Positions 3,748 to 38,280 of a stretch of 64,000 bases of DNA are shown here, in pieces. The position numbers were made by a program, and so were the translations under genes. Within the stretch, counting starts at the first letter, position 1, and the number at the start of each line of letters is the position of its first letter. The notes under the pieces were generated by a model, which was given only the letters and a program-made list of their open reading frames with translations, did not search any database and was not told the origin of the DNA. The stretch is from Escherichia coli (GTDB taxonomy: Bacteria > Pseudomonadota > Gammaproteobacteria > Enterobacterales > Enterobacteriaceae), in assembly GCF_024700885.2 (NCBI RefSeq), contig NZ_CP117016.1. The stretch is one strand, 5' to 3'.

Positions 3748-4104
3748 TTACATCTGGGCTGAAAACTCACGTTCTAAGACATCAACAATGAGCTGGTTTT
3801 TTGAAATGGAATGTTGTCTGGCGACGATGGTCAGCCGCGAATCAATGTGATGAGGAACACGAAGCGTCAGGCGTTTTTGCTCTTCTTCTTCACGAAAAGG
3901 GGCAATACCGTCCTCTTCACAATCCGCCATCCACTCATCCAGCGCGCTTTCGCCTTCACGATATAATGCCTCAATACTTGTGGCTACAAAGTCACAATAA
4001 CCGTTTACATTGAGGAACTTGCCGCGAAATGCGTTGATATCGGCTTCAAATGTCACTGCGGCTGGTTGACCTTTAATTGTGATAATGTTCGATGCTTTAT
4101 TCAT
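3748..4104 (-). CDS. HicB-family antitoxin-like protein (N-terminal HicB fold plus C-terminal ribbon-helix-helix)
   Basis: 118 aa; C-terminus RLTLRVPHHIDSRLTIVARQHSISKNQLIVDVLERE is CopG/RHH-like; overlaps the upstream hicA-like gene by 8 nt. Confidence 0.6.
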   Translation of the reverse strand: MNKASNIITIKGQPAAVTFEADINAFRGKFLNVNGYCDFVATSIEALYREGESALDEWMADCEEDGIAPFREEEEQKRLTLRVPHHIDSRLTIVARQHSISKNQLIVDVLEREFSAQM

Positions 4105-25837: not shown

Positions 25838-25913
25838 GCCGATATAGCTCAGTTGGTAGAGCAGCGCATTCGTAATGCGAAGGTCGTAGGTTCGACTCCT
25901 ATTATCGGCACCA
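25838..25913 (+). tRNA. thrW: tRNA-Thr (anticodon CGU)
   Basis: GCCGATATAGCTCAGTTGGTAGAGCAGCGCATTCGTAATGCGAAGGTCGTAGGTTCGACTCCTATTATCGGCACCA; cloverleaf with anticodon loop tTCGTAAt. Confidence 0.95.
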
Positions 25914-26077
25914 TCACCTAGTTTTCCCAAGTCAACCCACATCAACAAAATCATTTAAAAACATATATATTACGTTGTTTTCATACGTTTGAGGTCAACC
26001 CTTGTCTCTTGAAATCAACACGCGGTTGGGGGCACAATCAGGGGCATGTTCTGTTCGGTCTAGGAAATGTGCCCCCA

Positions 26078-27268
26078 ATGATGCTGAATGCCCGCAAGGT
26101 TGAAGCTGCGAAAGGAAAAGAGAAGAGCTACAAGCTGTTTGATGGAGGTGGCCTATATCTTCAGGTCGAACCTAATGGCTCGCGTTACTGGCGTATGAAA
26201 TACCGTTTTGCTGGTAAAGAGAAACGATTGTCCTTTGGTGTTTATCCAACAGTCACACTTGCTGATGCCAGACAAAAACGAGAAGACGCGAAGAAACTAC
26301 TCGCAGCAGGTGAAGATCCCGGCGAAGTCAAAAAAGCCAAAAAGCAGGCTTTAAATGCAGCGATTGAGACACTTAACCCATTCAGAGAAGTGGCGTTAGA
26401 GTGGCACAAAATGAAATCACCCAAATGGTCTGAGGGCTATGCTTCCGACATCATTGAGGCATTCGAGAAAGACATTTTCCCGCATATTGGGCACAGACCT
26501 ATAGCTGATATTCAGCCCCTTGAACTGCTTGAAGTTCTGAGATTGATAGAAGCTCGAGGCGCTATGGAGAAAGCGAAGAAAGTCCGTCAGCGATGCGGTG
26601 AAGTTTTTCGCTATGCCATCGTAACGGGTAGGGCAATCTACAATCCGGCACCGGATCTTGCCAGTGCGATGCAAGGACATGAAGCAGTCCACTATCCATT
26701 CCTCAAAGCCAACGAACTACCGGAGTTCTTTAATGCCCTTAATTCTTATTCAGGAAGTCCAATTGTATTGTTGGGGGCGCATTTACTTATCCTGACAGGT
26801 CTACGAACTGGAGAACTACGAGCAGGTGAGTGGCGAGAGGTGGATTTTGATAATGCGGTGTGGGAGATCCCAAAAGAACGTATGAAAATGCGTAGGAGCC
26901 ATATTGTCCCGTTGTCAAAACAAGCATTATCCCATCTCAAAAGTTTGAAAGAACTAACTGGGAACTACCCGCTGATGTTCCCTGGACGCAACGATCCTAG
27001 CAAATTTATGAGTGAAGCAAGCATTAATCAGGTGTTTAAACGTATTGGATATGCAGGGCGTGTTACGGGGCATGGTTTCAGGCATACGATGAGTACAATC
27101 CTACATGAGAAAGGATTTAACAGCGCTTGGATTGAAACCCAGCTTGCTCATTCGGACAAAAACTCTATTCGTGGAATTTATAACCATGCCCAATATCTCG
27201 AAGGGAGAAGAGAAATGATGCAATGGTATGCTAATTATTTATCTGAGCTAATTGGTACTCATAAATGA
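26078..27268 (+). CDS. int: P4-type tyrosine integrase (track ORF begins at 26009; likely start MMLNARK)
   Basis: N-terminus ...YKLFDGGGLYLQVEPNGSRYWRMKYRFAGKEKRLSFGVYP (P4 integrase arm-binding domain); catalytic HGFRHT...Y near the C-terminus. Confidence 0.9.
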   Translation: MMLNARKVEAAKGKEKSYKLFDGGGLYLQVEPNGSRYWRMKYRFAGKEKRLSFGVYPTVTLADARQKREDAKKLLAAGEDPGEVKKAKKQALNAAIETLNPFREVALEWHKMKSPKWSEGYASDIIEAFEKDIFPHIGHRPIADIQPLELLEVLRLIEARGAMEKAKKVRQRCGEVFRYAIVTGRAIYNPAPDLASAMQGHEAVHYPFLKANELPEFFNALNSYSGSPIVLLGAHLLILTGLRTGELRAGEWREVDFDNAVWEIPKERMKMRRSHIVPLSKQALSHLKSLKELTGNYPLMFPGRNDPSKFMSEASINQVFKRIGYAGRVTGHGFRHTMSTILHEKGFNSAWIETQLAHSDKNSIRGIYNHAQYLEGRREMMQWYANYLSELIGTHK

Positions 27269-28089
27269 ATATTTTAAAAATTAATAATACTGATTCTCTG
27301 CTCAGAGATTACTACCAGTTGGATGAAGCTTCAGAAAAAATTGGTTGTAGTGAAAAGGATATACTCTGGTTTGCCAGAGAACGAGATGTAGAGCTATGCA
27401 TGGAATTCCATGATGATGAGTATGATGTTTCATGTGGTTTGAAGATTGATGGTCAAATGGATGAGTTCTTATCTAATCTGAAATATTTACCACGAGATAG
27501 AAATGGCAATATTATGTTGTCAGACTTAAGTTCTATAAGAATCCCTGATGAAGATAATTTAATTGATAAAAATGGTTTTATTCGATGTTTCATATCCGGT
27601 TTATGGGCTGTTGATTATGAATATAAAGATCTGTTAGTTAAGCATGAGGGGCAACCGGATTCCTGGCCTATTCATTTTCTACTGGCGGGTACGCCTAATA
27701 TAAATTGTAAGGTAATTCTTTATGTAAATTATGATGAAAAAGAAAATTATTATCTTTTTGAGGTTTTGTGGATTACAAAGGTACAGATTCAAAAATTCAT
27801 TGATATAGTCTTATGCGAACAAAAGCGGATAAAAAACGCCAATAAATATAAATCACAATCTGAGGCGCAAAAACAAAAACATGCTGTTCCTCGAGCTGAA
27901 ATACTCATGGCTATTATTTCGCTCTATCATCGTGATATGAGGCTAAGAAGAGAGAGTCCAGCAGCGATAGCTGATTATCTTTTTCAACATGCCAGTGAGT
28001 TCTGGCCTAAGACCGGAGAACCGCCTTTGAGCTATGATACTGTTGTTAGTTTGCTACGTAGTTGCATGAAAAACACTAAGTTTAACTAA
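27265..28089 (+). CDS. Hypothetical 274-aa protein, AT-rich, with an N-terminal HTH_17/AlpA-like helix-turn-helix; overlaps the integrase stop by 4 nt
   Basis: YQLDEASEKIGCSEKDILWFARE resembles Xis/AlpA/MerR-type HTH; the remainder has no recognisable motif; markedly lower GC than int. Confidence 0.5.
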   Translation: MNILKINNTDSLLRDYYQLDEASEKIGCSEKDILWFARERDVELCMEFHDDEYDVSCGLKIDGQMDEFLSNLKYLPRDRNGNIMLSDLSSIRIPDEDNLIDKNGFIRCFISGLWAVDYEYKDLLVKHEGQPDSWPIHFLLAGTPNINCKVILYVNYDEKENYYLFEVLWITKVQIQKFIDIVLCEQKRIKNANKYKSQSEAQKQKHAVPRAEILMAIISLYHRDMRLRRESPAAIADYLFQHASEFWPKTGEPPLSYDTVVSLLRSCMKNTKFN

Positions 28090-28214
28090 ATATTAACAAT
28101 TATTGTGGCTAATGATTTTGGATTTTTTTCATTAGTCACATTTTTCTCATTTATAACCTATGTTTTAATTTTCCGTGTTGAAGCCAATAGACTTAGATAA
28201 ACGGAGAATGATGA

Positions 28215-28421
28215 ATGTTATCTAAACATGATAATACTACTTTGCAACGACCTTCAATGGATTCTCTGATCGATATGAAGTTTATTACTTCCGATTGTTT
28301 ATTAAGTGATAAATGGATTTATCGATTGATTTCTCTGAATCGCTTTCCAAAACCTATAAAAATAGGTCGGATGTCACGATGGCGCGCTGCTGATTATTAT
28401 AAGTGGCGAGATGGGTTTTAA
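28215..28421 (+). CDS. alpA: AlpA-family prophage transcriptional regulator
   Basis: 68 aa; ...DKWIYRLISLNRFPKPIKIGRMSRWRAADYYKWRD matches the AlpA HTH pattern. Confidence 0.75.
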   Translation: MLSKHDNTTLQRPSMDSLIDMKFITSDCLLSDKWIYRLISLNRFPKPIKIGRMSRWRAADYYKWRDGF

Positions 28422-28537
28422 GAAAACTCAGGTCAACATTTTGAGGGAATGAGAAATAAGGCAAGAGCAATTAATAAAGGGAATAGATTATCACCTACTC
28501 CCTAAGCCTTAATTGATAGTTAGTAATATTTAACTGA

Positions 28538-28711
28538 TTAGCCTTTAGGGTCAATCCCGCGTGATTGGAGTTCTTTGCGTAAAATTCTTTTAATCCAAGT
28601 TGCCAACGCGCTATCTCCATCTTTGCGCATTTCGTTTTCGAGTTGCAACCTAAAATCGTCGGTAAGACGCATTTGGAATGGTGGAGAACGTTTCTCTTGT
28701 GGTGTTGACAT
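28538..28711 (-). CDS. Ribbon-helix-helix (Arc/CopG-like) small DNA-binding protein, 57 aa; below the ORF-track cutoff
   Basis: Minus-strand translation MSTPQEKRSPPFQMRLTDDFRLQLENEMRKDGDSALATWIKRILRKELQSRGIDPKG; beta-strand then two helices typical of RHH. Confidence 0.6.
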   Translation of the reverse strand: MSTPQEKRSPPFQMRLTDDFRLQLENEMRKDGDSALATWIKRILRKELQSRGIDPKG

Positions 28712-28751
28712 GGTAATTACCCTAGAATATGATGACTACATGGTAATTACC
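28709..28751. promoter_or_regulatory. Two copies of CATGGTAATTACC (10-bp perfect palindrome GGTAATTACC), 30 bp apart; the first overlaps the RHH start codon; candidate operator
   Basis: Direct reading; spacing equals three helical turns; position at the divergent promoter region. Confidence 0.55.
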
Positions 28752-28842
28752 ATTGTAAGTATAGTTCGCTTGTAAAAGCAATGCCCGATTGTGCGGGAAC
28801 ACAAATCGGGCATTTAACCAACCGTTATAAGAGGTAACGAAG

Positions 28843-29016
28843 ATGGCTAAACAGAAGTGTACTTGGTTATTTGCGGCGATCAACCGCAGTCAACGCAATG
28901 CCCGTCCTGTGATGTTAAGGATCACCGCAGATAACGAGCGGTCAGCGCGGCGCAGACTTGCCCCGGACTATGTACTGAGCTTTGCCGGGCGCATTCCCTG
29001 CGGAGGTGAACATGCG
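28843..29016 (+). CDS. Small hypothetical ORF (57 aa), stop overlapping the next ORF start (ATGCGTAA)
   Basis: MAKQKCTWLFAAINRSQRNARPVMLRITADNERSARRRLAPDYVLSFAGRIPCGGEHA; translational-coupling geometry; no homology recognised. Confidence 0.35.
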
Positions 29017-29371
29017 TAATTATCCGCACCCCGGCGAACGCTGGCAGCATGAACGTGGCTGGACGGTCACGATTATCCGATTAATAGAAGCATCGCCCTC
29101 TGTGGCACTGGTTAATCCTGAATTCAGCTGTGAAGTGCTGATACGTCATGACAGCGACAACCAGCTTTCTTCCTGCCCTCTGGCATGGTTTGAACAGCGG
29201 TATACGCGCCTGTTTGATGTACCGCTCTTTAAGCCTGCACCAGCTCCTGCAGGCGGTAGTGGTTCCGGCCCGCTGACACTGCATCCGTCTGTGCTATTTA
29301 TCCGCTGGCGGGAGCGTAGCATATGGCGTTCTGCTGAGCCTGACGACGGTCACTATTCAAAGTTTCTCTGA
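29012..29371 (+). CDS. Hypothetical protein (start at MRNYPHPGERW)
   Basis: ORF in the island early-gene cluster; Gly/Pro linker in the middle. Confidence 0.45.
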   Translation: MRNYPHPGERWQHERGWTVTIIRLIEASPSVALVNPEFSCEVLIRHDSDNQLSSCPLAWFEQRYTRLFDVPLFKPAPAPAGGSGSGPLTLHPSVLFIRWRERSIWRSAEPDDGHYSKFL

Positions 29372-29402
29372 CAAAATACCGCTGAAAACGGAGTAATCCA
29401 CG

Positions 29403-29687
29403 ATGAATATTTCAAACGGGCACAACGGTGCTCAGGGCCACACTTTGCCTGAAAAACACAATACCGGTGCTTTTGCCTATGGGTTGTCAGAGGACAGTTT
29501 CGGAAAGCTGACCCGCGCAAGAAATGCCTGCGACATGCTCCAGCTTCTCTTTTCTGAATACCCGTCTCAGGCCGGAGCACTGGACGCTGGCTGTGCGCAT
29601 GGTGTCGCCGCGCTGATGGAGTACCTGCTGGCAGATTTGACGGATATTGCACACAGCTGCGCACTGATTGAAGGAGGTGCCAGATGA
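29403..29687 (+). CDS. Hypothetical protein, 94 aa
   Basis: ORF with AGGA-like ribosome-binding site; 4-nt overlap with the next ORF. Confidence 0.45.
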   Translation: MNISNGHNGAQGHTLPEKHNTGAFAYGLSEDSFGKLTRARNACDMLQLLFSEYPSQAGALDAGCAHGVAALMEYLLADLTDIAHSCALIEGGAR

Positions 29688-30067
29688 ACCAGCCGCAGGT
29701 TTCCATTTTCCCGGCAGAAATGACCACCGCGCTTTACCGGCGGGCTATTGCTTCAGCATGGCGGCAGAAAATGCTGAACGAAACTGGCAGTGATCAGTAT
29801 GGTCCGCACAGCCTGACGGTGGAGCGTATTGAAATGGCCATTGCGCTGCATATCGAGTGCGTACTGATTAACGAGTACGGCGAAGTGCAGGGCGCCGCTG
29901 CCGCGCTGGCACTGCTGACTGACATGCTGGAGCCGTCACTGCTGACCGCGCCGCCGGTACTGACCGCGCGCGGCTGTGAAGTGATGGCGGAGATGTACCG
30001 CACGCTTCCGGCGGCCTTTGATGACTTCTGCAGTACCGGTGTGACGTTGTATGAGGGGGAAGTATGA
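29684..30067 (+). CDS. Hypothetical protein, 127 aa; stop overlaps the primase start
   Basis: Coupled series of ORFs upstream of the alpha-like primase. Confidence 0.45.
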   Translation: MNQPQVSIFPAEMTTALYRRAIASAWRQKMLNETGSDQYGPHSLTVERIEMAIALHIECVLINEYGEVQGAAAALALLTDMLEPSLLTAPPVLTARGCEVMAEMYRTLPAAFDDFCSTGVTLYEGEV

Positions 30068-32736
30068 CAATACAGACGGTTACGCAGATTTCAGCCGCCG
30101 CACGGGGGAAATGGCCCGTTATTCTGCAGATGCTGCGTATTGATGTACCTGAAAACGGCAGGCACGGTCCCTGCCCGAAATGTGGGGGCAAGGATCGTTT
30201 TCGCCTTGATGACCTTGACGGGCGCGGGACGTGGATCTGCAGCCAGTGTGGCAATGGTGACGGTCTGGATCTGGTTAAGCTCGTAACCGGTTACAGCGTC
30301 AGAAAGGCTGCGCAGGAGGTGGCGCAGGTGCTTAATGTGCCGAATATGCAGGAACTGCCTGTTAAGCCTGCCAGACAAAAAGCCCCTAAACGCGACATGG
30401 GTCTTACCGTGGCGGCGCTGATGAAAGAGAGCCACACGGGAGAAAGCGCCTATCTGACAGGAAAAGGGTTCGCCGGATACCCGGCCTCTCTGACCGGAAG
30501 CGTGCAGCATATCAGCGGTAAGGATTTCCCTGCCGGTTCCCTGCTGTTACCACTCACGACCAACACCGGAGCCGTGACCGGTGCACAGCTTATCGCCCCG
30601 ACGGGTGAAAAAAGCATACTGCCCGGCAGCACGATGAAAGGCGCGTTTGTGTCGCTCAGCCCGTTACCGTCTGAACCACCGGTACAGGTGGTGATTACCG
30701 AAGGTTACGCTACGGCGCTGACGGTAAGTCAGCTCACTGCCGGATGCGTAGTGGCTGCCATATCTGCGGGCAACCTGCCCAATGTGGCGCAGTCGCTGCG
30801 GGCACGCTGGCCTGAGGTAAAAATTATCATCGCCGGTGATAACGATTTTCAGGACGGAGATGAGAATCCCGGCAGAGCCTTTGCTGAACGGGCGGCAAAA
30901 GCTGTTGGCGGCTGGATGACGCTGCCACCAGGAGAGATTAAGGCTGACTGGAATGACTTTCATCGGGAGCACGGTATTACCCGTGCCCGTGAAGCCTTTC
31001 GCAACGGTCTGGTACTGTGCGGGGAAGGCCGCACGCAACTGCCGCACGGGTTCCGTCTTACCCAGGAATATCTCTGGTATGAAAAGCAGGTACAGCGCAA
31101 CGGTGAGACGGAGATCCAGAACGTCAAAATATGCAGCCCGCTGCGCGTGACGGCAATCACCTGCGATGCCGATGGCGGTAACTTCGGACGACTGCTGGAA
31201 TGGGAAGATACGTGGGGTGAGTGTCGCCGCTGGGCGATGCCGATGGAAATGCTGAGCGGCAGTGGTGAGGAACTGCGCCGGGTACTGCTGGTTAACGGGC
31301 TGTCTTATATCAGCACCACCGGTGAGGCACGCGCACGCCTGATGGAATATATCTCACTGTGTAAACCGGAACGCCGCGTGACCTGCGTCAGTCGTACTGG
31401 CTGGCATGGTCAGGTTTACGTCCTGCAGGATGAGGTCAGCGGTGAAGGTGCAGAGGGTGTCATTCTCCAGACCACTTCCGTGCAGGGGCGTGATTTCCGC
31501 GTGTCGGGCACAACAGAGGAATGGCGGGAGCATGTATCCCGCTACTGTACCGGCAACTCCCGCGTGGCATTTGCTGTCAGCCTGGCCTTTGCTGCACCAC
31601 TGTTACGGCTGGTTGGTATGGACGGCGGCGGCTACCACCTCAAAGGGGAATCGACAGACGGTAAGACCACCACCATGAAAGCGGCAACCTCCGTCTGCGG
31701 CGGGCCTGACTACTGGCAGACATGGCGGGCCACCGGCAACGCGCTGGAGGGATGCGCCAGCCGCCGCAACGATGCCGCCATGATGCTTGATGAGATCCGG
31801 GAAGTTGACGGACGCGAGGCAGGCAATATCGCCTACATGCTGGCAAACGGTCAGGGCAAGGGCCGTGCCGGTACGGACGGTGAGCTGCGTACCCGTAAGC
31901 AGTGGCGCCTGTTGTTCTTTTCAACTGGCGAGTTGTCTCTGACCGAACATGCGGCAAAGGCCGGTGAGCGTACTTTTGCCGGGATGGAAGTCAGGATGAT
32001 CCAGATCCCCAGCGATTCCGGGAAGTTTGGCGTTTTTGAGGAGCTGCACGGCTTCGACAGCGGCAAGGCTCTGGCAGAGCATCTTGAATGGGCCACGTCC
32101 TGCTACTACGGTTCGCCGTTCCGGGAGTGGCTGAAAGCACTGACCGCTGATCTTAACGGACTAACGGCACAGGCAAAATCGCTGATGAAGGAATATGCTG
32201 CCGCCCTGACTCCGAAAGATGCAGGCAATCAGGTGGGCCGGGCTGTGAACCGCTTTGCTCTGGTGGCGATGGCAGGTGAACTGGCAACCCGTCTGGGTAT
32301 CACCGGCTGGCCTGAGGGTGAAGCACTGCGGGCAACCCGCGTCTGCCTGAACGCATGGCTGAAAGATCGCGGGCACACCGCCAATCAGGAAGATATCGCC
32401 GCACTGGAGCAGGTTCGCAGTTTCTTTACCGCGAATCAGTACAGCCGCTTTGCAGACTGGTATGACGAGCGCAACCGCCCCGGCAATATGGTGGGCTGGC
32501 GCAGGGTGGAGAAAGGCAGTACCGCGCAGGGCACGGAAGCTGTCACTACGTTCTATGTCATGCCGTCCGGCTGGAAAGAAATCTGCAGGGGATTTGACCC
32601 GCGCAAGGTGGCGCGTCTGTGCGCAGATCGTGGATACCTGCTGCCCTCCACAGATGGCAAACTCCAGACAACCATTCGCCCGCCAGAGATGAATCCCCGC
32701 AGGCTCTATGTCTTCAACAGCGAGGTGCCTGGTTAA
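30064..32736 (+). CDS. P4 alpha-like bifunctional primase-helicase (zinc-binding primase, Toprim and D5/P-loop NTPase domains)
   Basis: CPKCGG...CSQCG zinc ribbon near the N-terminus; Toprim-like ITEGYATALT...IIAGDND; Walker A GESTDGKTT; 890 aa. Confidence 0.85.
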   Translation: MTIQTVTQISAAARGKWPVILQMLRIDVPENGRHGPCPKCGGKDRFRLDDLDGRGTWICSQCGNGDGLDLVKLVTGYSVRKAAQEVAQVLNVPNMQELPVKPARQKAPKRDMGLTVAALMKESHTGESAYLTGKGFAGYPASLTGSVQHISGKDFPAGSLLLPLTTNTGAVTGAQLIAPTGEKSILPGSTMKGAFVSLSPLPSEPPVQVVITEGYATALTVSQLTAGCVVAAISAGNLPNVAQSLRARWPEVKIIIAGDNDFQDGDENPGRAFAERAAKAVGGWMTLPPGEIKADWNDFHREHGITRAREAFRNGLVLCGEGRTQLPHGFRLTQEYLWYEKQVQRNGETEIQNVKICSPLRVTAITCDADGGNFGRLLEWEDTWGECRRWAMPMEMLSGSGEELRRVLLVNGLSYISTTGEARARLMEYISLCKPERRVTCVSRTGWHGQVYVLQDEVSGEGAEGVILQTTSVQGRDFRVSGTTEEWREHVSRYCTGNSRVAFAVSLAFAAPLLRLVGMDGGGYHLKGESTDGKTTTMKAATSVCGGPDYWQTWRATGNALEGCASRRNDAAMMLDEIREVDGREAGNIAYMLANGQGKGRAGTDGELRTRKQWRLLFFSTGELSLTEHAAKAGERTFAGMEVRMIQIPSDSGKFGVFEELHGFDSGKALAEHLEWATSCYYGSPFREWLKALTADLNGLTAQAKSLMKEYAAALTPKDAGNQVGRAVNRFALVAMAGELATRLGITGWPEGEALRATRVCLNAWLKDRGHTANQEDIAALEQVRSFFTANQYSRFADWYDERNRPGNMVGWRRVEKGSTAQGTEAVTTFYVMPSGWKEICRGFDPRKVARLCADRGYLLPSTDGKLQTTIRPPEMNPRRLYVFNSEVPG

Positions 32737-32770
32737 GGCTTTGCGTGAGTCTTATTTATTAAGGGTAACA

Positions 32771-32958
32771 GGTGAAACAGGTGGAACAACCGTATTTTAC
32801 AGGGCTGAACCTGTTCCACCTTCTGAAATAGTGAGGTGGAACAGATGTAACGCCAGCCAATCCGCTGTTCCACCTTGTTACCCGCGATGTTCCACCGGTG
32901 CAGTGTATATAAATGCCTTATAAAACAAAGCCGTAACACATGTTTCACCTGTTCCACC
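32771..32958. repeat. Iteron cluster (replication origin): at least 8 copies of TGTT(C/T)CACC / GGTG(G/A)AACA in both orientations, plus an AT-rich patch
   Basis: Copies at 32771, 32780, 32811, 32836, 32864, 32888, 32941, 32949; the motif is one base off the P4 ori/crr repeat TGTTCACC bound by alpha. Confidence 0.7.
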
Positions 32959-33136
32959 GCATCAGGGACATAAAGCAGACTGAAACAGAGGGCATTTTTA
33001 TCTGGCTGGCTTTCATAGCCACGTCTGAATAACCGCAAGCGCCCGTTGTGCCAGCCACCACACACTGAACACCGATAGTGTGCTTGTGTCAGCCACGACA
33101 CAATTGACGTAACGAACCAACCCGACAGGAGAAGTC

Positions 33137-33880
33137 ATGAACAATACCGCAGTAAATAACAACCTTTCCACTTTTCCGGCTGTAACGCAGCGGGCACTGG
33201 AAACCATGAACACAGCCAGAAACGCATGGCTTGAAGCACGTCGTCAGCAGAAAGCGGCAGCGGATAATATTGCGACAATCCGCCAGCGTCGCGCTGAAAT
33301 GGAAGCCACGACGAACACACTGAATGAGGAGTGGCGCACGCTGTTTCGTGAAAGTCAGGGCGTGATCTCAAAGGAAATGAAAAAACTGCGCACGGAAATT
33401 GCGCTGGGACGAGAAACGCTTGAGGATTTTGATGAGCTGCTGGCGGCTCAGGAAAGCGAAAATGCACTTTTGCCGCAGAAAGCTGCAGAATTAGCCGGAA
33501 AGTATATCCACGCGCATAACATTCTTGTGGATATTCGCGCAAAACAAATCTGGGAGGATTTTATGCAGTCGCATGGAAAAGTGCTTATTCAGACGCTGAG
33601 CCTGCTTAAATCCACAATGGGCCGGGAAGCCAGTGCCGTTGTGGGTGTGGTGAATTCAGTTAATGACCCGGACACAGTGCTGAAAGACTTTATTCATAAA
33701 TATATCACCAGACCGGCTCTGGCTAACGATGCGATGCCTGAGCAGGACCCGGTGTTTAAACTGGCGGGAGTTGCCCCGGATTATGCGGCGCGTCTGGATT
33801 TCAGTAATCAACTCTCTCCGGCAGCTATGCATAAAATTAAGGTTCGTCAGGAACTTGCTGAGAAGGAGAAAGCAGTATGA
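33137..33880 (+). CDS. Hypothetical alpha-helical or coiled-coil protein, 247 aa
   Basis: A/E/R/Q-rich predicted helices; size and position are only suggestive of a Sid-like scaffold protein. Confidence 0.45.
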   Translation: MNNTAVNNNLSTFPAVTQRALETMNTARNAWLEARRQQKAAADNIATIRQRRAEMEATTNTLNEEWRTLFRESQGVISKEMKKLRTEIALGRETLEDFDELLAAQESENALLPQKAAELAGKYIHAHNILVDIRAKQIWEDFMQSHGKVLIQTLSLLKSTMGREASAVVGVVNSVNDPDTVLKDFIHKYITRPALANDAMPEQDPVFKLAGVAPDYAARLDFSNQLSPAAMHKIKVRQELAEKEKAV

Positions 33881-34428
33881 CGGCCCGAGGCACGCCTGAC
33901 CAGGCACTTACCAGTTTTCGGAATGCCCGTATTCTGTGGGCCGGACATAATGAGAGCCGAAAAGCCGTTGAACAACAGATAACATCTCTCCTCGCTGCCA
34001 CAGAAAAACCAGCAGATTATGCCCGACAGCTCGAATTACTGCGGGAACGTCTGGATGTGCTGAAATGGCAAATTAACTGTGCTGCGCGCGAATGCATTTA
34101 CTCGCAGCATTTACTGATGGAGGCCTGCACAGAAGCCGCTCTCAGCAATTTTATGCAGGCGAATGGGGCAGCCCTGACATCTGCACTGGCTCCGTTCCTG
34201 AAGGGGCGCGGAGGGGTTGACGTTGCGTCCCGTATATTACGCAGTGCTCTGGTTCGCCAGCTGGCAATAACACCGCCTGAATTTGCCGGGGATTATCGTG
34301 AGATCCTGGATGAATCCGGTTTGATGCTTGACCCCGGGATGATTCGTGATTGCCAGGGTTCTTACACCCCGGCACAACATCTGCGTTTTCAGCAACGCCT
34401 GAATGACATTAACGATATACAGGAGTGA
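33877..34428 (+). CDS. Hypothetical protein, 183 aa, coupled to the previous ORF
   Basis: 4-nt overlap with 33137..33880. Confidence 0.45.
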   Translation: MTARGTPDQALTSFRNARILWAGHNESRKAVEQQITSLLAATEKPADYARQLELLRERLDVLKWQINCAARECIYSQHLLMEACTEAALSNFMQANGAALTSALAPFLKGRGGVDVASRILRSALVRQLAITPPEFAGDYREILDESGLMLDPGMIRDCQGSYTPAQHLRFQQRLNDINDIQE

Positions 34429-34433
34429 TATTA

Positions 34434-34706
34434 ATGGCACTTAAATGTCCGGAATGCGGTACAGTTGCACACGCCAGAACAGCAGCCTATGAAGCTCCGT
34501 CAGTTAAACGCTCGTGGTATCAGTGCCAGAATCTGGAATGTTCCTGCACATTTACGGCACTGGAGAGTGTGGATAAGATAATCATGAAACCCCGGCGCAA
34601 TGAACAGGAACCAGACAAATCACAAACCCCGGTAAAACAACAGCAAACGCTCAATCGCTATGGCTCCGCGTCAAAACTGTCAAGCCGTCAGCAGATTCCT
34701 GTCTGA
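34434..34706 (+). CDS. Ogr/Delta-family zinc-finger late transcription activator (start at MALKCPECG)
   Basis: CPECG-N-H...YQCQNLECSCTF four-Cys zinc-finger pattern of P2 Ogr and P4 Delta. Confidence 0.8.
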   Translation: MALKCPECGTVAHARTAAYEAPSVKRSWYQCQNLECSCTFTALESVDKIIMKPRRNEQEPDKSQTPVKQQQTLNRYGSASKLSSRQQIPV

Positions 34707-35299
34707 TTAGAAAAAAAATGCCCACGTAATCCCGGTCGAGTACTGGGATTTTTAACACCTTACCCCTGGCTGGCCTGAGAGCGCATGAGTGCATGTCTAT
34801 GGCGCATGAAAACGCATGAGTCTCATGCACCATTTTTGACGCGAAAGCCCTTGTGTGGTGGCTTCTGAGACGATTAATGAGGTGCATGAAAACCAGTCTG
34901 TTAAGTGAAGCGGGAAGGCGTGCGGGGCTGCGCACGTAGCAGGGTTAAATGGTCAATTCTGGCGCAGCTCACGACATTAAGTCAGCCTCAATAGATGTAC
35001 GTGTTGGTAGGGGTAATTCGCTACTTTTTTGTATCCTAAATTGTATGGTTTGATGCTGATCGTTTCTTCACCGCACCTGCAGAGATATCAATTCAATGTG
35101 GACAAAAATGAGTCTGGCTCTTTCCGTATCACTAGAATTGCCAGTATTGTTAGGGATGATGCCCATATCATACGGAGGGAGCCAGTGGGGGCGATTGCGC
35201 GTGGAAAGTGCTTTGGATTTATTCATCGGTTTTATGATTCTACATAAGGAGCAAAGGTACTTGTATCGTATGAAAAAAAATAGTATAGATATAATGCTC

Positions 35300-35525
35300 C
35301 TTACGCGTTATGGCATAGTTATATGCTAGTCGGGCGATTAGCCAGACTCGAACTTATTGAACGGTATTAGGGTTGCGCTTGGTGTGCCTCTGGATTGCAC
35401 TCCATGCTGTCGCGCAATCCAGAGGCACACCAAGCGCTTCCTTTAGGTAAGTGAGTAAAAACAGCACCTTCTTCGATTTATGATGAAGGTGCTGCAATCG
35501 TAACGTTTTTTGTATACACGGATAG
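35300..35525 (+). ncRNA. Candidate retron non-coding RNA (msr-msd): 63-nt perfect hairpin 35375-35437 plus a second hairpin 35462-35494; boundaries and a1/a2 unresolved
   Basis: A perfect long inverted repeat immediately upstream of an effector-RT operon is the hallmark of msd; TATAAT at 35291. Confidence 0.5.
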
Positions 35526-35529
35526 TATA

Positions 35530-36498
35530 GTGGCTGAGACATACGAAGATAAAGTTGCTAATCATGTTTCAGAGTGGGAAATGGAAAATTTCCGTGTATG
35601 TTATGATGATCAGGTTATTTTCTTATGTGGTGCGGAAGTACTTCCTCAAGGAAGTGTTCAGACTTCAATGAGAGGGCATTTTTATCACTATTGCCTGAAT
35701 AAAAATAAAGATATAGCTGATAAAATAATTCTTGCCGAAAACTTCAAAAAATATCTTCAAAATAATCATTATCCAGACTTAATAACTTTTGAGCATGATG
35801 TTGCAAGTATATCTAGTTTAGTTGTTATTTTCTTGGAAAGCAGTGGTTCAATTGCTGAGTTAGGTGTTTTCTGTAATATTAGTGATGTCAATAAAAAATT
35901 ATTGATATTTGTTCCATCAGATGAAGTTGAAGGTGACAAGAAAGAGTCTTTCATTTACTTAGGGCCTTTATTGTTTTTAAAAGAAAAGGTCAATGAAAAA
36001 GCATTTAAGATTTATCCAAAACCCACTAATGGTTCTGATTACTCCGAGCATTTAGAGATTATGGCTGATGACTTGGCTGAACTATTACCTAGAAGTGGTA
36101 AGTTTGAAAGCTTCGATCCTGACAATTTAGGGCATATAGCTTTTCTTATATGCAGAATTGTGCATTTAGTAATGCCTATTAAGCTAAAGGAAATATTAAA
36201 TTGTTTAAAAATAATAGGTATCAATAAATATACTCTGACTGAGGTTGAAAGAATTTTGTTTTTATTGGAAACATTGGGTTTTATAAATATTTATCCGTAT
36301 GGCGATTTAAAATACTATTATTCAATGCAAGCCAGGCAAAATCTTAAATTAGGGAAAAATAAAACCGGATTCACAATCGATGAGGCTGGTATTTTTACTG
36401 ATATTAGTGTTTTTATCAATGACAATAAATTATGTAGTGATAAAAAAAGACGGCTGGTTTTGAAAGGCATTAAGGAGAAGCATAATGGACATAATTAA
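35530..36498 (+). CDS. Retron effector: nucleoside 2-deoxyribosyltransferase-like N-domain plus winged-helix-like C-domain (GTG start at 35530 or ATG at 35578)
   Basis: VIFLCGAEV and ESSGSIAELGVF resemble the NDT P-loop-like and catalytic-Glu motifs; overlaps the RT start by 14 nt; AT-rich. Confidence 0.6.
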   Translation: MAETYEDKVANHVSEWEMENFRVCYDDQVIFLCGAEVLPQGSVQTSMRGHFYHYCLNKNKDIADKIILAENFKKYLQNNHYPDLITFEHDVASISSLVVIFLESSGSIAELGVFCNISDVNKKLLIFVPSDEVEGDKKESFIYLGPLLFLKEKVNEKAFKIYPKPTNGSDYSEHLEIMADDLAELLPRSGKFESFDPDNLGHIAFLICRIVHLVMPIKLKEILNCLKIIGINKYTLTEVERILFLLETLGFINIYPYGDLKYYYSMQARQNLKLGKNKTGFTIDEAGIFTDISVFINDNKLCSDKKRRLVLKGIKEKHNGHN

Positions 36499-37417
36499 AA
36501 AAATCGCAGATGAAACTCTAATGCCGGTATCAAAAGTATCTGCTTTTATATTTACAGCCCCATATAGATATAAAGTATATCCCATCCCCAAAAGGAATGG
36601 TGGGTTTAGGGAGATTGCTCAACCGTCAAGGGCATTAAAGTTTATGCAAAGGATTGTTATTGCTGAACTAGAGAAAGTACTTAAGGTTCATGAAAACGCA
36701 TATGCTTATGTCAAAGGACGTAGTATAAAAGATAATGTGGAAAAGCATCAAAGAAACTCTTATATTTTGAAAGTTGATTTCTGCGACTTTTTTAATAGCA
36801 TAAACCCTTACGACCTTGAGTTATGTTTAAAAAACAATGGGTTAGACTCATTGTTAAGCTCACAAGAATTATTGAATAAACTTTTTTTCTATAAGAAAAG
36901 TAAAAGAGGTGCTTTATCAATGAGCATCGGGGCACCTAGTTCTCCATTTTTGTCAAATGCGATTATGTATAAGTTTGATTCAGTCATTAGTGATATGTGT
37001 TCAAATAAAAATATTACTTATACAAGATATGCTGATGATCTTACATTTTCTACTAATGAAAAAGGTATTTTGTATGAATTCATACATGAAATAGATAAAG
37101 TTCTTGAGGAGATAGATAGTCCTAAATTAAAACTAAATGATAAGAAAACCATATTTGCATCTAAAAAATGCAATCGTCATATAACAGGAATTGTTATTAA
37201 TAACGAAGAAAAACTTTCAATTGGTAGAGATAAAAAACGTTACTTAAGTAGTTTAATTCATAAATTCTCGCTTAATGCACTTAATGAGGAAGGAGTTGAA
37301 CATTTAAAAGGGTATTTGGCGTATGTAAATAAAATTGAACCTTCATTCATTAGCAGAATGAAAAGGAAATATGGAGTCGAAGTTGTCAACTCCATAATCA
37401 CATTTAATCCATTATAA
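36485..37417 (+). CDS. Retron-type reverse transcriptase, 310 aa
   Basis: RT motifs LKVDFCDFFNSI, SIGAPSSPFLSNAIMY, YTRYADDLTF (YADD) and the retron-specific ITGIVIN (VTG) motif. Confidence 0.85.
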   Translation: MDIIKKIADETLMPVSKVSAFIFTAPYRYKVYPIPKRNGGFREIAQPSRALKFMQRIVIAELEKVLKVHENAYAYVKGRSIKDNVEKHQRNSYILKVDFCDFFNSINPYDLELCLKNNGLDSLLSSQELLNKLFFYKKSKRGALSMSIGAPSSPFLSNAIMYKFDSVISDMCSNKNITYTRYADDLTFSTNEKGILYEFIHEIDKVLEEIDSPKLKLNDKKTIFASKKCNRHITGIVINNEEKLSIGRDKKRYLSSLIHKFSLNALNEEGVEHLKGYLAYVNKIEPSFISRMKRKYGVEVVNSIITFNPL

Positions 37418-37894
37418 ATGTGAACTTATTATATTTATAATGGTTGTGCTTTTTTCTTGTACCTTAGGGGTGTAAAAGAATGTCATCATGAAGATAATTA
37501 AAAAATGAATGGCAATAAGAGTAATAGGTAACATTTTTTCAATATCACTTAAATGGCGATGCCTTTTTTGTGTAATAACTTCCTCTTCTCTTTTGAAAGG
37601 AGTTATACCTATCTTGACCTCCATCTCCTGAATTACTGTAAACTTAGCAGCATTAATTCTTTTATAGGAAGTAATTAGATTTATCCAATAGATATTAATT
37701 ACGACTCCAGCGAGAGAGATTAAGATTACCCAAATAGGCTGTATTGTTGGCTTTAAAGAAAAATATCCAACAAGCGGTAAAATAGAAGAGTTTAAGGCTA
37801 ATAAAAATGTATTTGACTTAAGTCTTCGATCACTTATTCTATCCGCCATCTCAACGCATGTTTTATATATTTCTATGACTTTATCATCCGTCAC
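37412..37894 (-). CDS. Small multi-TM membrane protein (160 aa), SLATT-like topology; convergent on the RT, last gene before attR
   Basis: N-terminal amphipathic segment followed by 2-3 hydrophobic helices (ILPLVGYFSL..., IWVILISLAGVVINIYWINLI, LPITLIAIHFLIIFMMTFFY); AT-rich. Confidence 0.5.
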   Translation of the reverse strand: MTDDKVIEIYKTCVEMADRISDRRLKSNTFLLALNSSILPLVGYFSLKPTIQPIWVILISLAGVVINIYWINLITSYKRINAAKFTVIQEMEVKIGITPFKREEEVITQKRHRHLSDIEKMLPITLIAIHFLIIFMMTFFYTPKVQEKSTTIINIISSHL

Positions 37895-38137
37895 TAATAG
37901 TATCCTTATAAATTTCTGAGTTGTTCAAATAAATGTTATCATATATTTTTATCAACGTAATATGTATTTTTACGTATTTTTAACTGTGAGAGATACATAG
38001 TGATTGTTGGGTGCATGTACAATCCTTGATACTTAACAATGAAAGCGTAGTTGTGGGGGGGGGGCATATTTGGGGGCATTACTATTTAATCTTTCTTGAT
38101 TTTTATTATAAAACAACTGGTTGTATTGATGTTTTGT

Positions 38138-38153
38138 TCCTATTATCGCACCA
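38138..38153 (+). repeat. attR: TCCTATTATCGCACCA, a 15/16 match to the thrW 3' end
   Basis: Direct repeat of 25897-25913 lacking one G. Confidence 0.7.
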
Positions 38154-38280
38154 TTTAAATCAAGTAGTTACCTCACATTCAATTACACCACATTTTCCTC
38201 CTGTGCCGTATTTGTGCCATTGTAACCCTGGCAATTCATCAAAATACTGTTCTGACATCAGGCAGTGCAGGTGCAGACAT

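What the first reader, a model, noticed from the sequence alone, without database searches (positions are those of the whole stretch)
25838..38153. A 12.3-kb P4/phiR73-like satellite island at thrW, different from the K-12 CP4-6 prophage
A P4-type integrase sits next to tRNA-Thr. It is followed by alpA, an alpha-type primase-helicase with a downstream iteron origin, an Ogr/Delta homolog and cargo. A 16-bp imperfect direct repeat of the tRNA 3' end at 38138-38153 bounds the element, right next to a LysR fragment and the pao/ecp backbone. The element lacks recognisable sid/psu/cos. It may be a reduced P2-dependent satellite or a phage-inducible chromosomal island, with its defence cargo placed distal to the integrase.
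Basis: partly seen in the sequence, partly recalled or inferred. Interest (0 to 1): 0.65.

Follow-up and report, generated by a model that had tools for sequence, protein, structure and literature searches.

The report
P4-like phage satellite carrying a retron
This is a complete 12.2-kb P4-family phage satellite inserted precisely at the thrW tRNA gene of E. coli, carrying a retron anti-phage system in the family's usual cargo slot; it is an ordinary member of a well-catalogued class, not a stripped-down or new kind of island.

Summary
A 12,240-bp insert (25914-38153) lies between thrW and a 16-nt copy of the tRNA 3' end. In 948 of 5,426 complete E. coli genomes the two flanks are joined exactly at those points.

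The element has sid (33137-33880), psu (33877-34428) and delta (34434-34706). It also has a probable P2/P4-type cos (about 34874-34935) and two TGT-N12-ACA dyads upstream of sid. So it is a full P4-like satellite, not a reduced one and not a PICI. It shares only its flanks with K-12 CP4-6.

The cargo (34937-38060) is a type II-A1 (St85/Sen2-family) retron: msr-msd, NDT effector and RT. A convergent RipA/8xMP-family membrane gene sits beside it. The cargo starts immediately after cos, which is the known P4 defence hotspot. Sister elements with the same backbone carry DRT3, an AAA ATPase plus S8 peptidase, or SMEK/DUF2326 there.

Differences from P4:
- a different module order (int-alpA-alpha-sid-psu-delta)
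- a DUF927 helicase domain in alpha
- a single-domain delta
- no detectable epsilon

Helper dependence and activity are inferred, not shown.

Side leads: 8xMP stays linked to this retron clade down to 40% identity, and a remnant of the helper portal gene lies next to cos.

The parts
25838..25913 (+). thrW tRNA-Thr(CGU). attL core = 25897-25913 (TCCTATTATCGGCACCA).
   Evidence: ARAGORN; Rfam tRNA 71.8 bits; sequence.
26078..27268 (+). P4-type tyrosine integrase (396 aa).
   Evidence: Pfam Arm-DNA-bind_3, Phage_int_M and Phage_integrase. 43% identity to P4 Int over 406 aa.
27265..28089 (+). orf274, a lineage-specific gene whose start overlaps the int stop. Low GC. Function unknown.
28215..28421 (+). 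AlpA/Vis-type HTH regulator or excisionase. 68 aa here, cut short by a TAA where sister elements read GAA and continue to 96 aa.
   Evidence: Pfam Phage_AlpA; PHROG excisionase; weak match to P4 Vis; alignment with sister elements.
28538..28711 (-). Small conserved ORF (57 aa) of unknown function between alpA and icd.
   Evidence: Annotated in all relatives. No family hit.
28843..29019 (+). Icd-like cell-division inhibitor.
   Evidence: NCBIfam phage_ICD_like 5.5e-24. 54% identity to the P4 kil/icd region.
29012..29687 (+). Two conserved small ORFs: orf119 (29012-29371) and orf94 (29403-29687). They sit where P4 has epsilon and orf151. No epsilon homology.
   Evidence: phrog_30862 and phrog_14861. 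P4 epsilon belongs to other families: phrog_10016 and Pfam Derepression.
29684..30067 (+). DUF5375 protein, homolog of P4 ORF106.
   Evidence: Pfam DUF5375. 40% identity to P4 ORF106.
30064..32736 (+). Alpha-type primase-helicase (890 aa): Zn-ribbon, Toprim and DUF927.
   Evidence: The N-terminal 316 aa are 39% identical to P4 alpha.
32771..32958 (.). Iteron cluster: 8 copies of TGTTYCACC in both orientations. Putative ori/crr.
   Evidence: 8 of the window's 9 sites; 0.93 expected. Lies immediately downstream of alpha, as crr does in P4.
33047..33102 (+). Two TGT-N12-ACA dyads (33047-33064 and 33085-33102), centres 38 bp apart. Putative Delta/Ogr-activated late promoter for sid-psu-delta.
   Evidence: Repeat family D4; sequence. 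The second dyad, TGTGTCAGCCACGACACA, resembles TGTGTCAGGGCTGGCACA upstream of P4 sid.
33137..33880 (+). sid homolog (external scaffold that sets capsid size).
   Evidence: phrog_6165 1e-91, the family of P4 Sid. 23% identity to P4 Sid over 226 aa.
33877..34428 (+). psu (capsid decoration protein and Rho antagonist).
   Evidence: Pfam Psu 5.4e-43; phrog_6366 9e-69; 29% identity to P4 Psu.
34434..34706 (+). delta (single Ogr/Delta zinc-finger domain, 90 aa).
   Evidence: Pfam Ogr_Delta 6.6e-16. 45% identity to the first half of P4 Delta.
34874..34935 (+). Probable cos. Conserved boxes TGCATGAAAACC ... GAAGCGGG, then the putative cohesive-end 19-mer GGCGTGCGGGGCTGCGCAC (34917-34935).
   Evidence: Alignment to the P2 and P4 cos junctions. 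Best P2-cos match in the 64-kb window, score 32 against at most 31 in 20 shuffles. The same boxes precede a canonical GGCGAGGCGGGGAAAGCAC in a Klebsiella satellite. Backbone identity with sister elements ends at 34936-34953.
35035..35187 (-). Degenerate remnant of the 3' end of a P2-family portal gene (Q), with an in-frame stop.
   Evidence: blastn to Fels-2 Q, 74.7%. tblastn 26/55 aa, E=4e-11. Same position relative to cos as Q in P2.
35296..35486 (+). Retron non-coding RNA: msr (35296-35365) and msd with a 24-bp perfect stem (35368-35486).
   Evidence: Rfam msr 53.4 bits (gathering score 52); STnc400 53 bits, below its gathering score; sequence.
35530..36498 (+). Retron effector, NDT-like (STM3845/RcaT family).
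   Evidence: PADLOC NDT_II-A 2.3e-79. NCBIfam retron St85 family effector 2e-66.
36485..37417 (+). Retron reverse transcriptase (YADD motif present).
   Evidence: Pfam RVT_1; PADLOC RT_II-A 6.6e-123; NCBIfam retron_St85_RT 347 bits against a cut-off of 235; sequence.
37412..37894 (-). RipA/8xMP-family membrane protein with 2 predicted TM helices. Convergent with RT, with a 6-nt overlap.
   Evidence: Pfam 8xMP 1.5e-28; hydropathy. Linked to the retron in Serratia, Klebsiella, Morganella and Salmonella.
38061..38153 (+). Conserved right end of the element (attP arm, containing TGGGGGCA at 38071-38078), ending in the attR core at 38138-38153.
   Evidence: Similarity to sister elements resumes at 38060/38061. 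Repeat. The TGGGGGCA motif is also at 26027 and 26070, but is not significant on its own.

Best explanation
The insert is a complete P4-family, P2-helper-dependent phage satellite integrated in the 3' end of thrW. Its defence cargo is a type II-A1 retron plus a linked membrane protein.

Proposed mechanism (only the insertion boundaries are shown; every step below is inferred from homology):
1. Int recombines a roughly 17-bp attP core with the tRNA 3' end and leaves the tRNA intact.
2. The element stays quiescent. AlpA/Vis-type, Icd-like and small lineage-specific genes control excision and early expression.
3. When a P2-like helper infects or is induced, Ogr or Delta acts at the two TGT-N12-ACA dyads and turns on sid-psu-delta.
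4. Delta cross-activates the helper's late genes.
5. Alpha replicates the excised circle from the TGTTYCACC iterons.
6. Sid redirects helper capsid protein into small capsids that fit about 12 kb. Psu decorates them and antagonises Rho.
7. The helper terminase cuts at the cos site next to delta.

The slot immediately after cos is the family's recombination hotspot. Here it holds a St85/Sen2-type retron. In that system the RT-msDNA complex keeps the NDT-like toxin inactive until a phage perturbs it, which causes abortive infection.
For: Precise insertion:
- 948 genomes have an empty site that joins 25913 to 38154.
- The identical element is present in 22 complete genomes.
- It has different neighbours in different strains: a P22-like prophage upstream in strain elppa4, and CP4-6-like or other islands downstream.

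Six of the seven P4 core components are detected:
- int, alpA and alpha
- sid and psu
- delta

P4-like cis elements:
- iterons
- dyads upstream of sid that resemble the sequence upstream of P4 sid
- a cos-like region

Hotspot behaviour: DRT3, AAA plus S8 peptidase, SMEK/DUF2326 and Shigella variants share the backbone at 98-99% identity. They diverge at 34936-34953 and rejoin at 38060-38138. This matches PMC9122126 and PMC13586616.

Size: 12.2-13.2 kb in all variants, against 11.6 kb for P4.

Retron: msr reaches the Rfam gathering score. RT and effector pass the NCBIfam and PADLOC models. Type II-A1 also contains Ec73, the retron of phiR73 (PMC7736814).
Against: - No epsilon/Ash homolog was found.
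- alpA carries a premature stop that removes 28 C-terminal residues.
- The putative cohesive end differs from the P2/P4 19-mer at about 7 positions. The cos alignment alone is only marginally above shuffles (32 against a maximum of 31).
- No P2-like phage with this exact 19-mer was found.
- The gene order differs from that reported for about 98% of catalogued P4-like elements (PMC8628076).
- No experimental data on excision, packaging or defence exist for this element.
Confidence: 0.85

Rival explanations
1. It is a domesticated or defective P4-like remnant. It is fixed at thrW, can no longer be mobilised, and is kept because the retron protects the host.
For: - alpA is truncated by a nonsense mutation.
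- No epsilon.
- The cos is divergent and no matching helper was found.
- The 22 copies are 100% identical, which could reflect clonal descent.
Against: - All other ORFs are intact, and the AlpA HTH domain is retained.
- The att sites are intact and precise.
- The same element lies next to different neighbours.
- Sister elements at 98-99% identity have swapped cargo exactly at cos and swapped integration modules. That points to a recently active lineage.
Confidence: 0.12
2. It is a PICI-type island or a reduced satellite that lacks capsid-size and packaging functions and relies on other helpers.
For: - int-alpA-primase is also the left-hand layout of Gram-negative PICIs.
- The primase has a DUF927 domain rather than the P4-type helicase.
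Against: - sid, psu and delta are present with strong profile matches.
- A P2/P4-type cos region and a remnant of the P2 portal gene are present.
- No PICI-type packaging or capsid-morphogenesis family was hit in Pfam or PHROGs.
Confidence: 0.02
3. The cos assignment is wrong. The true packaging site lies elsewhere, or the element uses another route such as a plasmid state or generalised transduction.
For: - The P2 cos alignment score barely exceeds the shuffles.
- The exact P2/P4 19-mer is absent, even allowing 5 mismatches.
Against: Four independent cues point to the same 60 bp:
- its position directly after psu/delta
- the conserved boxes TGCATGAAAACC and GAAGCGGG, shared with P2, P4 and a Klebsiella satellite
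- the backbone-to-cargo breakpoint at 34936 in three sister elements
- a Q-gene remnant about 100 bp to the right, as at the left end of P2
Confidence: 0.1

Closest known systems
Satellite phage P4 (NC_001609)
   Same: - P4-type Int (43% identity)
- Vis/AlpA, Icd and ORF106/DUF5375 homologs
- alpha primase N-terminus (39%)
- 8-9-nt iterons downstream of alpha
- Sid, Psu and Delta homologs
- a dyad sequence upstream of sid
- cos directly followed by accessory genes
- about 12 kb in size
   Different: - Module order is att-int-orf274-alpA...alpha-ori-sid-psu-delta-cos-cargo-att. In P4 it is att-int-cargo-cos-psu-delta-sid-alpA-eps-alpha-att.
- Alpha has a DUF927 C-terminal domain.
- Delta is a single domain of 90 aa, against a fused 166 aa in P4.
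- No epsilon.
- The cohesive end is divergent.
- It integrates at thrW (P4 uses leuX, from my own knowledge).
- The cargo is a retron instead of gop-beta-cII.
Retronphage phiR73 (P4-like, carries retron Ec73, integrated at selC)
   Same: A P4-like satellite of about 12-13 kb in a tRNA gene, carrying a type II-A1 retron. Ec73 is listed as II-A1 together with St85 in PMC7736814. P2-dependent transfer of a retron-bearing P4-like element is cited in PMC8628076.
   Different: - A different tRNA site.
- The retron here is classified by NCBIfam as St85 family.
- The phiR73 sequence was not in the searchable collections, so no direct alignment could be made.
Defence hotspot of P4-like satellites (Rousset et al. 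2022, PMC9122126; NAR 2026, PMC13586616)
   Same: Variable defence cargo directly adjacent to cos, between psu/delta and int in the circular map. The backbone is unchanged while the cargo swaps: retron, DRT3, AAA plus S8 peptidase, SMEK/DUF2326.
   Different: Here attP lies between the hotspot and int. In the prophage the cargo therefore ends up at the far end from int.
Retron-Sen2 (St85) of Salmonella, a tripartite toxin-antitoxin (bioRxiv 10.1101/2020.06.22.160168)
   Same: The same msr-msd, effector, RT order and the same families.
   Different: - A convergent 8xMP/RipA-family membrane gene overlaps the RT stop codon.
- It is conserved in enterobacterial relatives.
- It is absent next to a Pseudomonas relative.

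Membership tests
P4-like satellites (core set of Moura de Sousa & Rocha, PMC8628076) | Integrase | tested here: met
   Pfam integrase domains; 43% identity to P4 Int.
P4-like satellites | psu | tested here: met
   Pfam Psu 5.4e-43; phrog_6366 9e-69, the same PHROG as P4 Psu.
P4-like satellites | sid | tested here: met
   phrog_6165 1e-91, the same PHROG as P4 Sid (6e-116). Pairwise 23% identity over 226 aa.
P4-like satellites | delta (Ogr/Delta activator) | tested here: met
   Pfam Ogr_Delta 6.6e-16; 45% identity to P4 Delta.
P4-like satellites | alpA | tested here: met
   Pfam Phage_AlpA 21.6 bits (cut-off 21); PHROG excisionase. C-terminally truncated relative to sister elements.
P4-like satellites | alpha primase/helicase | tested here: met
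   Zn_Ribbon_Prim plus Toprim; 39% identity to the P4 alpha N-terminus. The C-terminal part is DUF927 and is not alignable to P4.
P4-like satellites | epsilon/Ash (helper derepression) | tested here: not met
   No ORF hits P4 epsilon's families (phrog_10016/3688, Pfam PF25738) or Phage_ASH, even at E<=10. The scheme tolerates one missing component ('Type B').
P4-like satellites | P2-type cos adjacent to psu/delta | tested here: inconclusive
   Homologous boxes and a divergent 19-mer at 34874-34935. The exact P2/P4 cos is absent. Cleavage was not tested.
P4-like satellites | Mobilisation and capsid-size redirection by a P2-family helper | not testable with these tools
   Needs infection or induction experiments.
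Retron type II-A1 (Mestre et al., PMC7736814) | msr-msd ncRNA upstream of the genes | tested here: met
   Rfam msr 53.4 bits, at or above the gathering score of 52. A 24-bp msd stem.
Retron type II-A1 | Retron-clade RT | tested here: met
   PADLOC RT_II-A 6.6e-123; NCBIfam retron_St85_RT 347 bits against a cut-off of 235.
Retron type II-A1 | NDT-like effector with a C-terminal DNA-binding domain | tested here: met
   PADLOC NDT_II-A 2.3e-79; NCBIfam STM3845_fam 224 bits against a cut-off of 100. The DNA-binding domain was not examined separately.
Retron type II-A1 | msDNA synthesis and toxin neutralisation | not testable with these tools
   Experimental.
PICI (phage-inducible chromosomal islands of Gram-negatives) | Packaging-redirection or capsid-morphogenesis genes of PICI type, and absence of the P4 sid/psu/delta hijack module | tested here: not met
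   sid, psu and delta are present. No PICI-type family was hit in Pfam or PHROGs.
CP4-6 cryptic prophage of K-12 | Sequence similarity to the K-12 thrW island | tested here: not met
   blastn of the element against K-12 261500-299500 matches only the thrW-side flank, the yagP-side flank and the 53-bp ptwF repeat.

The most novel reading that the evidence does not exclude
The RipA/8xMP-family two-TM membrane protein may be a conserved fourth component of an enterobacterial subclade of II-A1 retrons that travels in P4-like hotspots, for example a second effector or a membrane anchor.
- It is encoded convergently and overlaps the RT stop codon.
- The NDT, RT and 8xMP trio co-diverges: 56/56/40% identity between E. 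coli and Klebsiella, and 74/70/66% between Klebsiella and Serratia.
- The trio sits in two differently organised satellite lineages.
- The msr-msd core stays almost invariant across them.

Separately, the portal-gene remnant about 100 bp from cos would be a physical footprint of a satellite capturing the left end of its helper.
Probability: 0.3. Interest if true: 0.45.

Novelty: new member of a known kind. Interest (0 to 1): 0.22.

Why it matters
This result mainly closes a lead. The island is an ordinary P4-like satellite, and its defence cargo behaves as already described for this family.

It remains a clean worked example:
- exact att boundaries, confirmed by hundreds of empty sites
- a cargo breakpoint that coincides with the end of the putative cohesive end
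- a helper portal-gene scar beside cos

Together these fit the published idea that cos ends drive cargo exchange between P2-like phages and their satellites.

Two small leads could be tested cheaply: the retron-linked 8xMP membrane protein, and the int-linked orf274, which moves together with the integration module.

Tried and rejected
- Searched the window for the P2/P4 cohesive-end 19-mer allowing up to 5 mismatches. Nothing was found in the element. cos was found only by aligning the longer P2/P4 junctions.
- Scanned IMG/VR and the species-representative genomes for the exact putative 19-mer, hoping to find a matching P2-like helper. The results were one odd viral contig that shares about 390 bp of the cos region, one Shigella sister satellite, and unrelated matches in GC-rich genomes. 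No helper was found.
- blastn and tblastn against 50,697 phage records gave only P4 int (69%), a Fels-2 Q fragment and thrW-type attP sites. phiR73 is apparently not in the collection. Sid gave no tblastn hit at 1e-5.
- Literature searches for RipA/8xMP returned only 'RIPA buffer' and unrelated hits.
- TGGGGGCA as integrase arm sites: 3 of its 4 occurrences lie near the att ends, but the count is not above chance. Kept only as a suggestion.
- Rfam found no C4/CI-type immunity RNA. A symR-like hit at 28777-28848 is far below threshold.
- The PICI and CP4-6 readings were rejected on gene content.

Full report

ARAGORN finds a single tRNA in the window, tRNA-Thr(CGU), at 25838-25913. Its last 17 nt, TCCTATTATCGGCACCA (25897-25913), recur at 38138-38153 as TCCTATTATC-GCACCA, one G short.

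I joined 500 bp ending at 25913 to 500 bp starting at 38154 and searched 5,426 complete E. coli genomes. In 948 of them the 1000-bp construct matches as one uninterrupted piece at 99.2% identity. In strain 118UI the tRNA is followed directly by the sequence that follows 38153 in the window.

The insert is therefore 25914-38153, or 12,240 bp, with base-precise ends.

The identical element occurs in 22 complete genomes. One of its genes is indexed in thousands of assemblies.

**2. Gene content**

RefSeq annotation of an identical copy and my own profile searches give this order:

- int (26078-27268)
- orf274 (27265-28089)
- alpA (28215-28421)
- a 57-aa ORF on the minus strand
- an Icd-like gene
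- orf119 and orf94
- a DUF5375 gene
- alpha (30064-32736)
- an iteron cluster
- sid (33137-33880)
- psu (33877-34428)
- delta (34434-34706)
- a non-coding stretch
- a retron
- a convergent membrane-protein gene (37412-37894)
- about 90 bp of conserved end sequence with the attR repeat

Pairwise BLASTP against P4 proteins gives:

| Protein | Identity to P4 |
|---|---|
| Int | 43% |
| Icd region | 54% |
| ORF106/DUF5375 | 40% |
| alpha, N-terminal primase only | 39% |
| Sid | 23% |
| Psu | 29% |
| Delta | 45% |

The 247-aa ORF falls in the same PHROG as P4 Sid (1e-91, against 6e-116 for P4 Sid itself). The 183-aa ORF falls in the same PHROG as P4 Psu and in Pfam Psu (5e-43).

**3. cis elements**

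*Iterons.* Eight of the nine TGTTYCACC sites in the whole 64-kb window lie within 32771-32958, just downstream of alpha. Only 0.93 are expected by chance, and no shuffle reached 9. P4 has its crr repeats in the same position.

*Late promoter.* Upstream of sid are two TGT-N12-ACA dyads, at 33047-33064 and 33085-33102. The second, TGTGTCAGCCACGACACA, resembles TGTGTCAGGGCTGGCACA upstream of P4 sid. From my own knowledge, this dyad is the Ogr/Delta binding site of P2/P4 late promoters, and the P4 late promoters have two such sites.

*cos.* The exact P2/P4 19-mer is absent. Several lines of evidence still point to one place.

- When the P2 and P4 cos junctions are aligned to the region after delta, the boxes AGGTGCAT-AAAACC and GTGAAGCGGG line up. 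They are followed by GGCGTGCGGGGCTGCGCAC (34917-34935) where P2 and P4 have GGCGAGGCGGGGAAAGCAC.
- The best local match of a 95-nt P2 cos segment anywhere in the window, on either strand, is 34874-34927. Its score is 32, against a maximum of 31 in 20 block shuffles. On its own this is only marginal.
- A Klebsiella satellite has TGCATGAAAACC...GAAGCGGGCA in front of a canonical P2/P4 cos.
- Four sister elements, 98-99% identical over the backbone, lose similarity at 34936, 34936, 34941 and 34953. That is at or just after the end of the putative cohesive end.
- About 100 bp further right, on the minus strand, lies a decayed copy of the last 55 or so codons of a P2-family portal gene Q. It matches Fels-2 Q at 26/55 aa, E=4e-11, with an in-frame stop. 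In P2 itself the 3' end of Q sits 168 bp from the left cohesive end.

I therefore call cos probable, not proven.

**4. The cargo**

The variable segment (about 34937-38060) is AT-rich, with 27-34% GC against 52-61% in the alpha region. It contains:

- Rfam msr at 35296-35365 (53.4 bits, gathering score 52)
- an msd with a 24-bp perfect stem
- an NDT-like effector (PADLOC NDT_II-A 2e-79; NCBIfam 'retron St85 family effector')
- an RT (PADLOC RT_II-A 7e-123; NCBIfam retron_St85_RT 347 bits against a cut-off of 235; YADD motif present)

This is a type II-A1 retron. The same type includes Sen2/St85 and also Ec73, the retron of phiR73 (PMC7736814). For Sen2, the RT-msDNA complex acts as antitoxin to the effector toxin, and phage proteins trigger or block the system (bioRxiv 10.1101/2020.06.22.160168 and 160242). 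I transfer that mechanism here by homology only.

Sister elements carry other cargo in exactly the same slot: DRT3, an AAA ATPase plus S8 peptidase, or SMEK/DUF2326. This is the cos-adjacent psu-int defence hotspot described for P4-like satellites (PMC9122126; PMC13586616).

**5. What it is not**

- K-12 CP4-6 (34 kb) shares only the two flanks and the tRNA-derived repeat with this element.
- It is not a PICI. The P4 hijack module is present, and no PICI-type packaging or capsid family was detected.
- It is not 'reduced'. At 12.2 kb it is slightly larger than P4 (11.6 kb). The sister elements are 12.8-13.2 kb.

**6. How it differs from P4**

(a) *Order of modules.* P4 reads att-int-cargo-cos-(psu, delta, sid)-alpA-eps-alpha-att. 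This element reads att-int-orf274-alpA-...-alpha-iterons-(sid, psu, delta)-cos-cargo-att. The survey in PMC8628076 reports the P4 order in 77% of complete elements, a psu/delta swap in 20%, and other orders in about 1% or less each. So this is a minority architecture. It recurs in Pantoea, Serratia, Salmonella and Shigella.

(b) *Alpha.* The C-terminal half is DUF927, not alignable to P4 alpha.

(c) *Delta.* It is a single 90-aa domain.

(d) *Epsilon.* No homolog was found, even at permissive thresholds. In the published scheme the element would be 'Type B'.

(e) *alpA.* It has a TAA where sister elements have GAA, giving 68 instead of 96 aa. The HTH is retained.

These points lower confidence that this particular copy is fully active. 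They do not change the family assignment.

**7. Modularity and prevalence**

The whole backbone (int to cos) is present at 80% coverage or more in 60 of 5,426 genomes. The segment from icd to cos is found at about 98-99% identity in further genomes, without this int-orf274-alpA block and at quite different chromosomal coordinates. I did not inspect what lies upstream of it in those genomes.

If those copies are complete elements with another integrase, int, orf274 and alpA would behave as one exchangeable integration module. This fits the report that integrases of P4-like elements are often exchanged (PMC8628076).

**8. Side observations with some novelty**

The RipA/8xMP-family membrane protein has Pfam 8xMP 1.5e-28 and two predicted TM helices. 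Its gene is convergent with the RT and overlaps it by 6 nt.

The same NDT, RT and 8xMP arrangement, with a 4-nt overlap, is found in:

- a Serratia satellite
- a Klebsiella satellite with the canonical P4 layout
- Morganella and Salmonella copies

A Pseudomonas St85-family retron lacks it.

Identities for NDT/RT/8xMP are 56/56/40% between E. coli and Klebsiella, and 74/70/66% between Klebsiella and Serratia. The three genes have therefore stayed together over a long divergence. Across the same three loci the roughly 140-nt msr-msd core is almost invariant.

This linkage could reflect function, or merely a shared cassette. That cannot be decided here, and I found no paper on it.

**9. Verdict**

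The element is a new, uncharacterised member of a well-known and heavily catalogued class. Interest is low. Helper dependence, excision, cos cleavage and retron activity are all inferred from homology.

Noticed in passing
window 37412-37894 (minus strand); L042 6001-8376; L046 4034-6406: The RipA/8xMP-family 2-TM protein gene is convergent with the retron RT gene and overlaps its stop codon. The NDT, RT and 8xMP trio is kept at 40-74% identity in E. coli, Klebsiella, Serratia, Morganella and Salmonella satellites. It is absent next to a Pseudomonas St85-family retron.
   Followed up: partly
window 35035-35187 (minus strand): A decayed remnant of the C-terminal 55 or so codons of a P2-family portal gene (Q) lies about 100 bp right of the putative cos. 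This mirrors the left end of P2 and suggests past capture of helper DNA. An 84%-identical copy precedes DRT3 in another satellite (L014).
   Followed up: partly
window 35296-35486; L046 about 3800-3990; L042: The msr-msd core (about 140 nt, including the 24-bp msd stem) is almost invariant among three retrons whose RT and effector proteins are only about 56% identical.
   Followed up: no
window 38154-38222: The first 70 or so bp of 'backbone' right of the element match the attP and the 3' end of the integrase gene of thrW-integrating lambdoid phages (HK542/SfX type). They are followed by a truncated LysR gene. The same scar is present in the 'empty' genomes, so the empty site is itself the remains of an older prophage.
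   Followed up: partly
window 25866 and 25901, compared with L002 1953 and 1988: The thrW T-stem differs by a compensatory pair between the occupied site (T...A) and the empty site of strain 118UI (G...C). The A variant also occurs in phage HK542 attP. This may record past phage integrations.
   Followed up: no
window 28419-28421: alpA ends at a TAA where sister elements read GAA and continue for 28 more codons (68 against 96 aa). The HTH domain is retained. The effect on excision is unknown.
   Followed up: partly
window 27265-28089; L012 10001-10828; L008 2066-3667: orf274 is a family-less, low-GC gene that always follows int in this satellite lineage (also in Pantoea). In one E. coli strain it is disrupted by IS1. 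Copies of the icd-to-cos core at other chromosomal positions do not match the int-orf274-alpA block.
   Followed up: partly
L003 1-15000 (strain elppa4): A P22-like prophage sits between thrW and the satellite. In this strain the satellite is the second element of a tandem array at the same tRNA. Other strains have CP4-6-like or other islands on the far side (L020-L022).
   Followed up: partly
L012 15905-16863; L014 5743-6776: Some relatives of this lineage (Pantoea, and one E. coli DRT3 variant) go from sid directly to delta with no separate psu gene.
   Followed up: no
L009 11400-11880 (IMG/VR UViG_2541047958_000001): A viral contig carries about 390 bp of this cos region plus the Q remnant, flanked by unrelated sequence. 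The contig was not analysed further.
   Followed up: no
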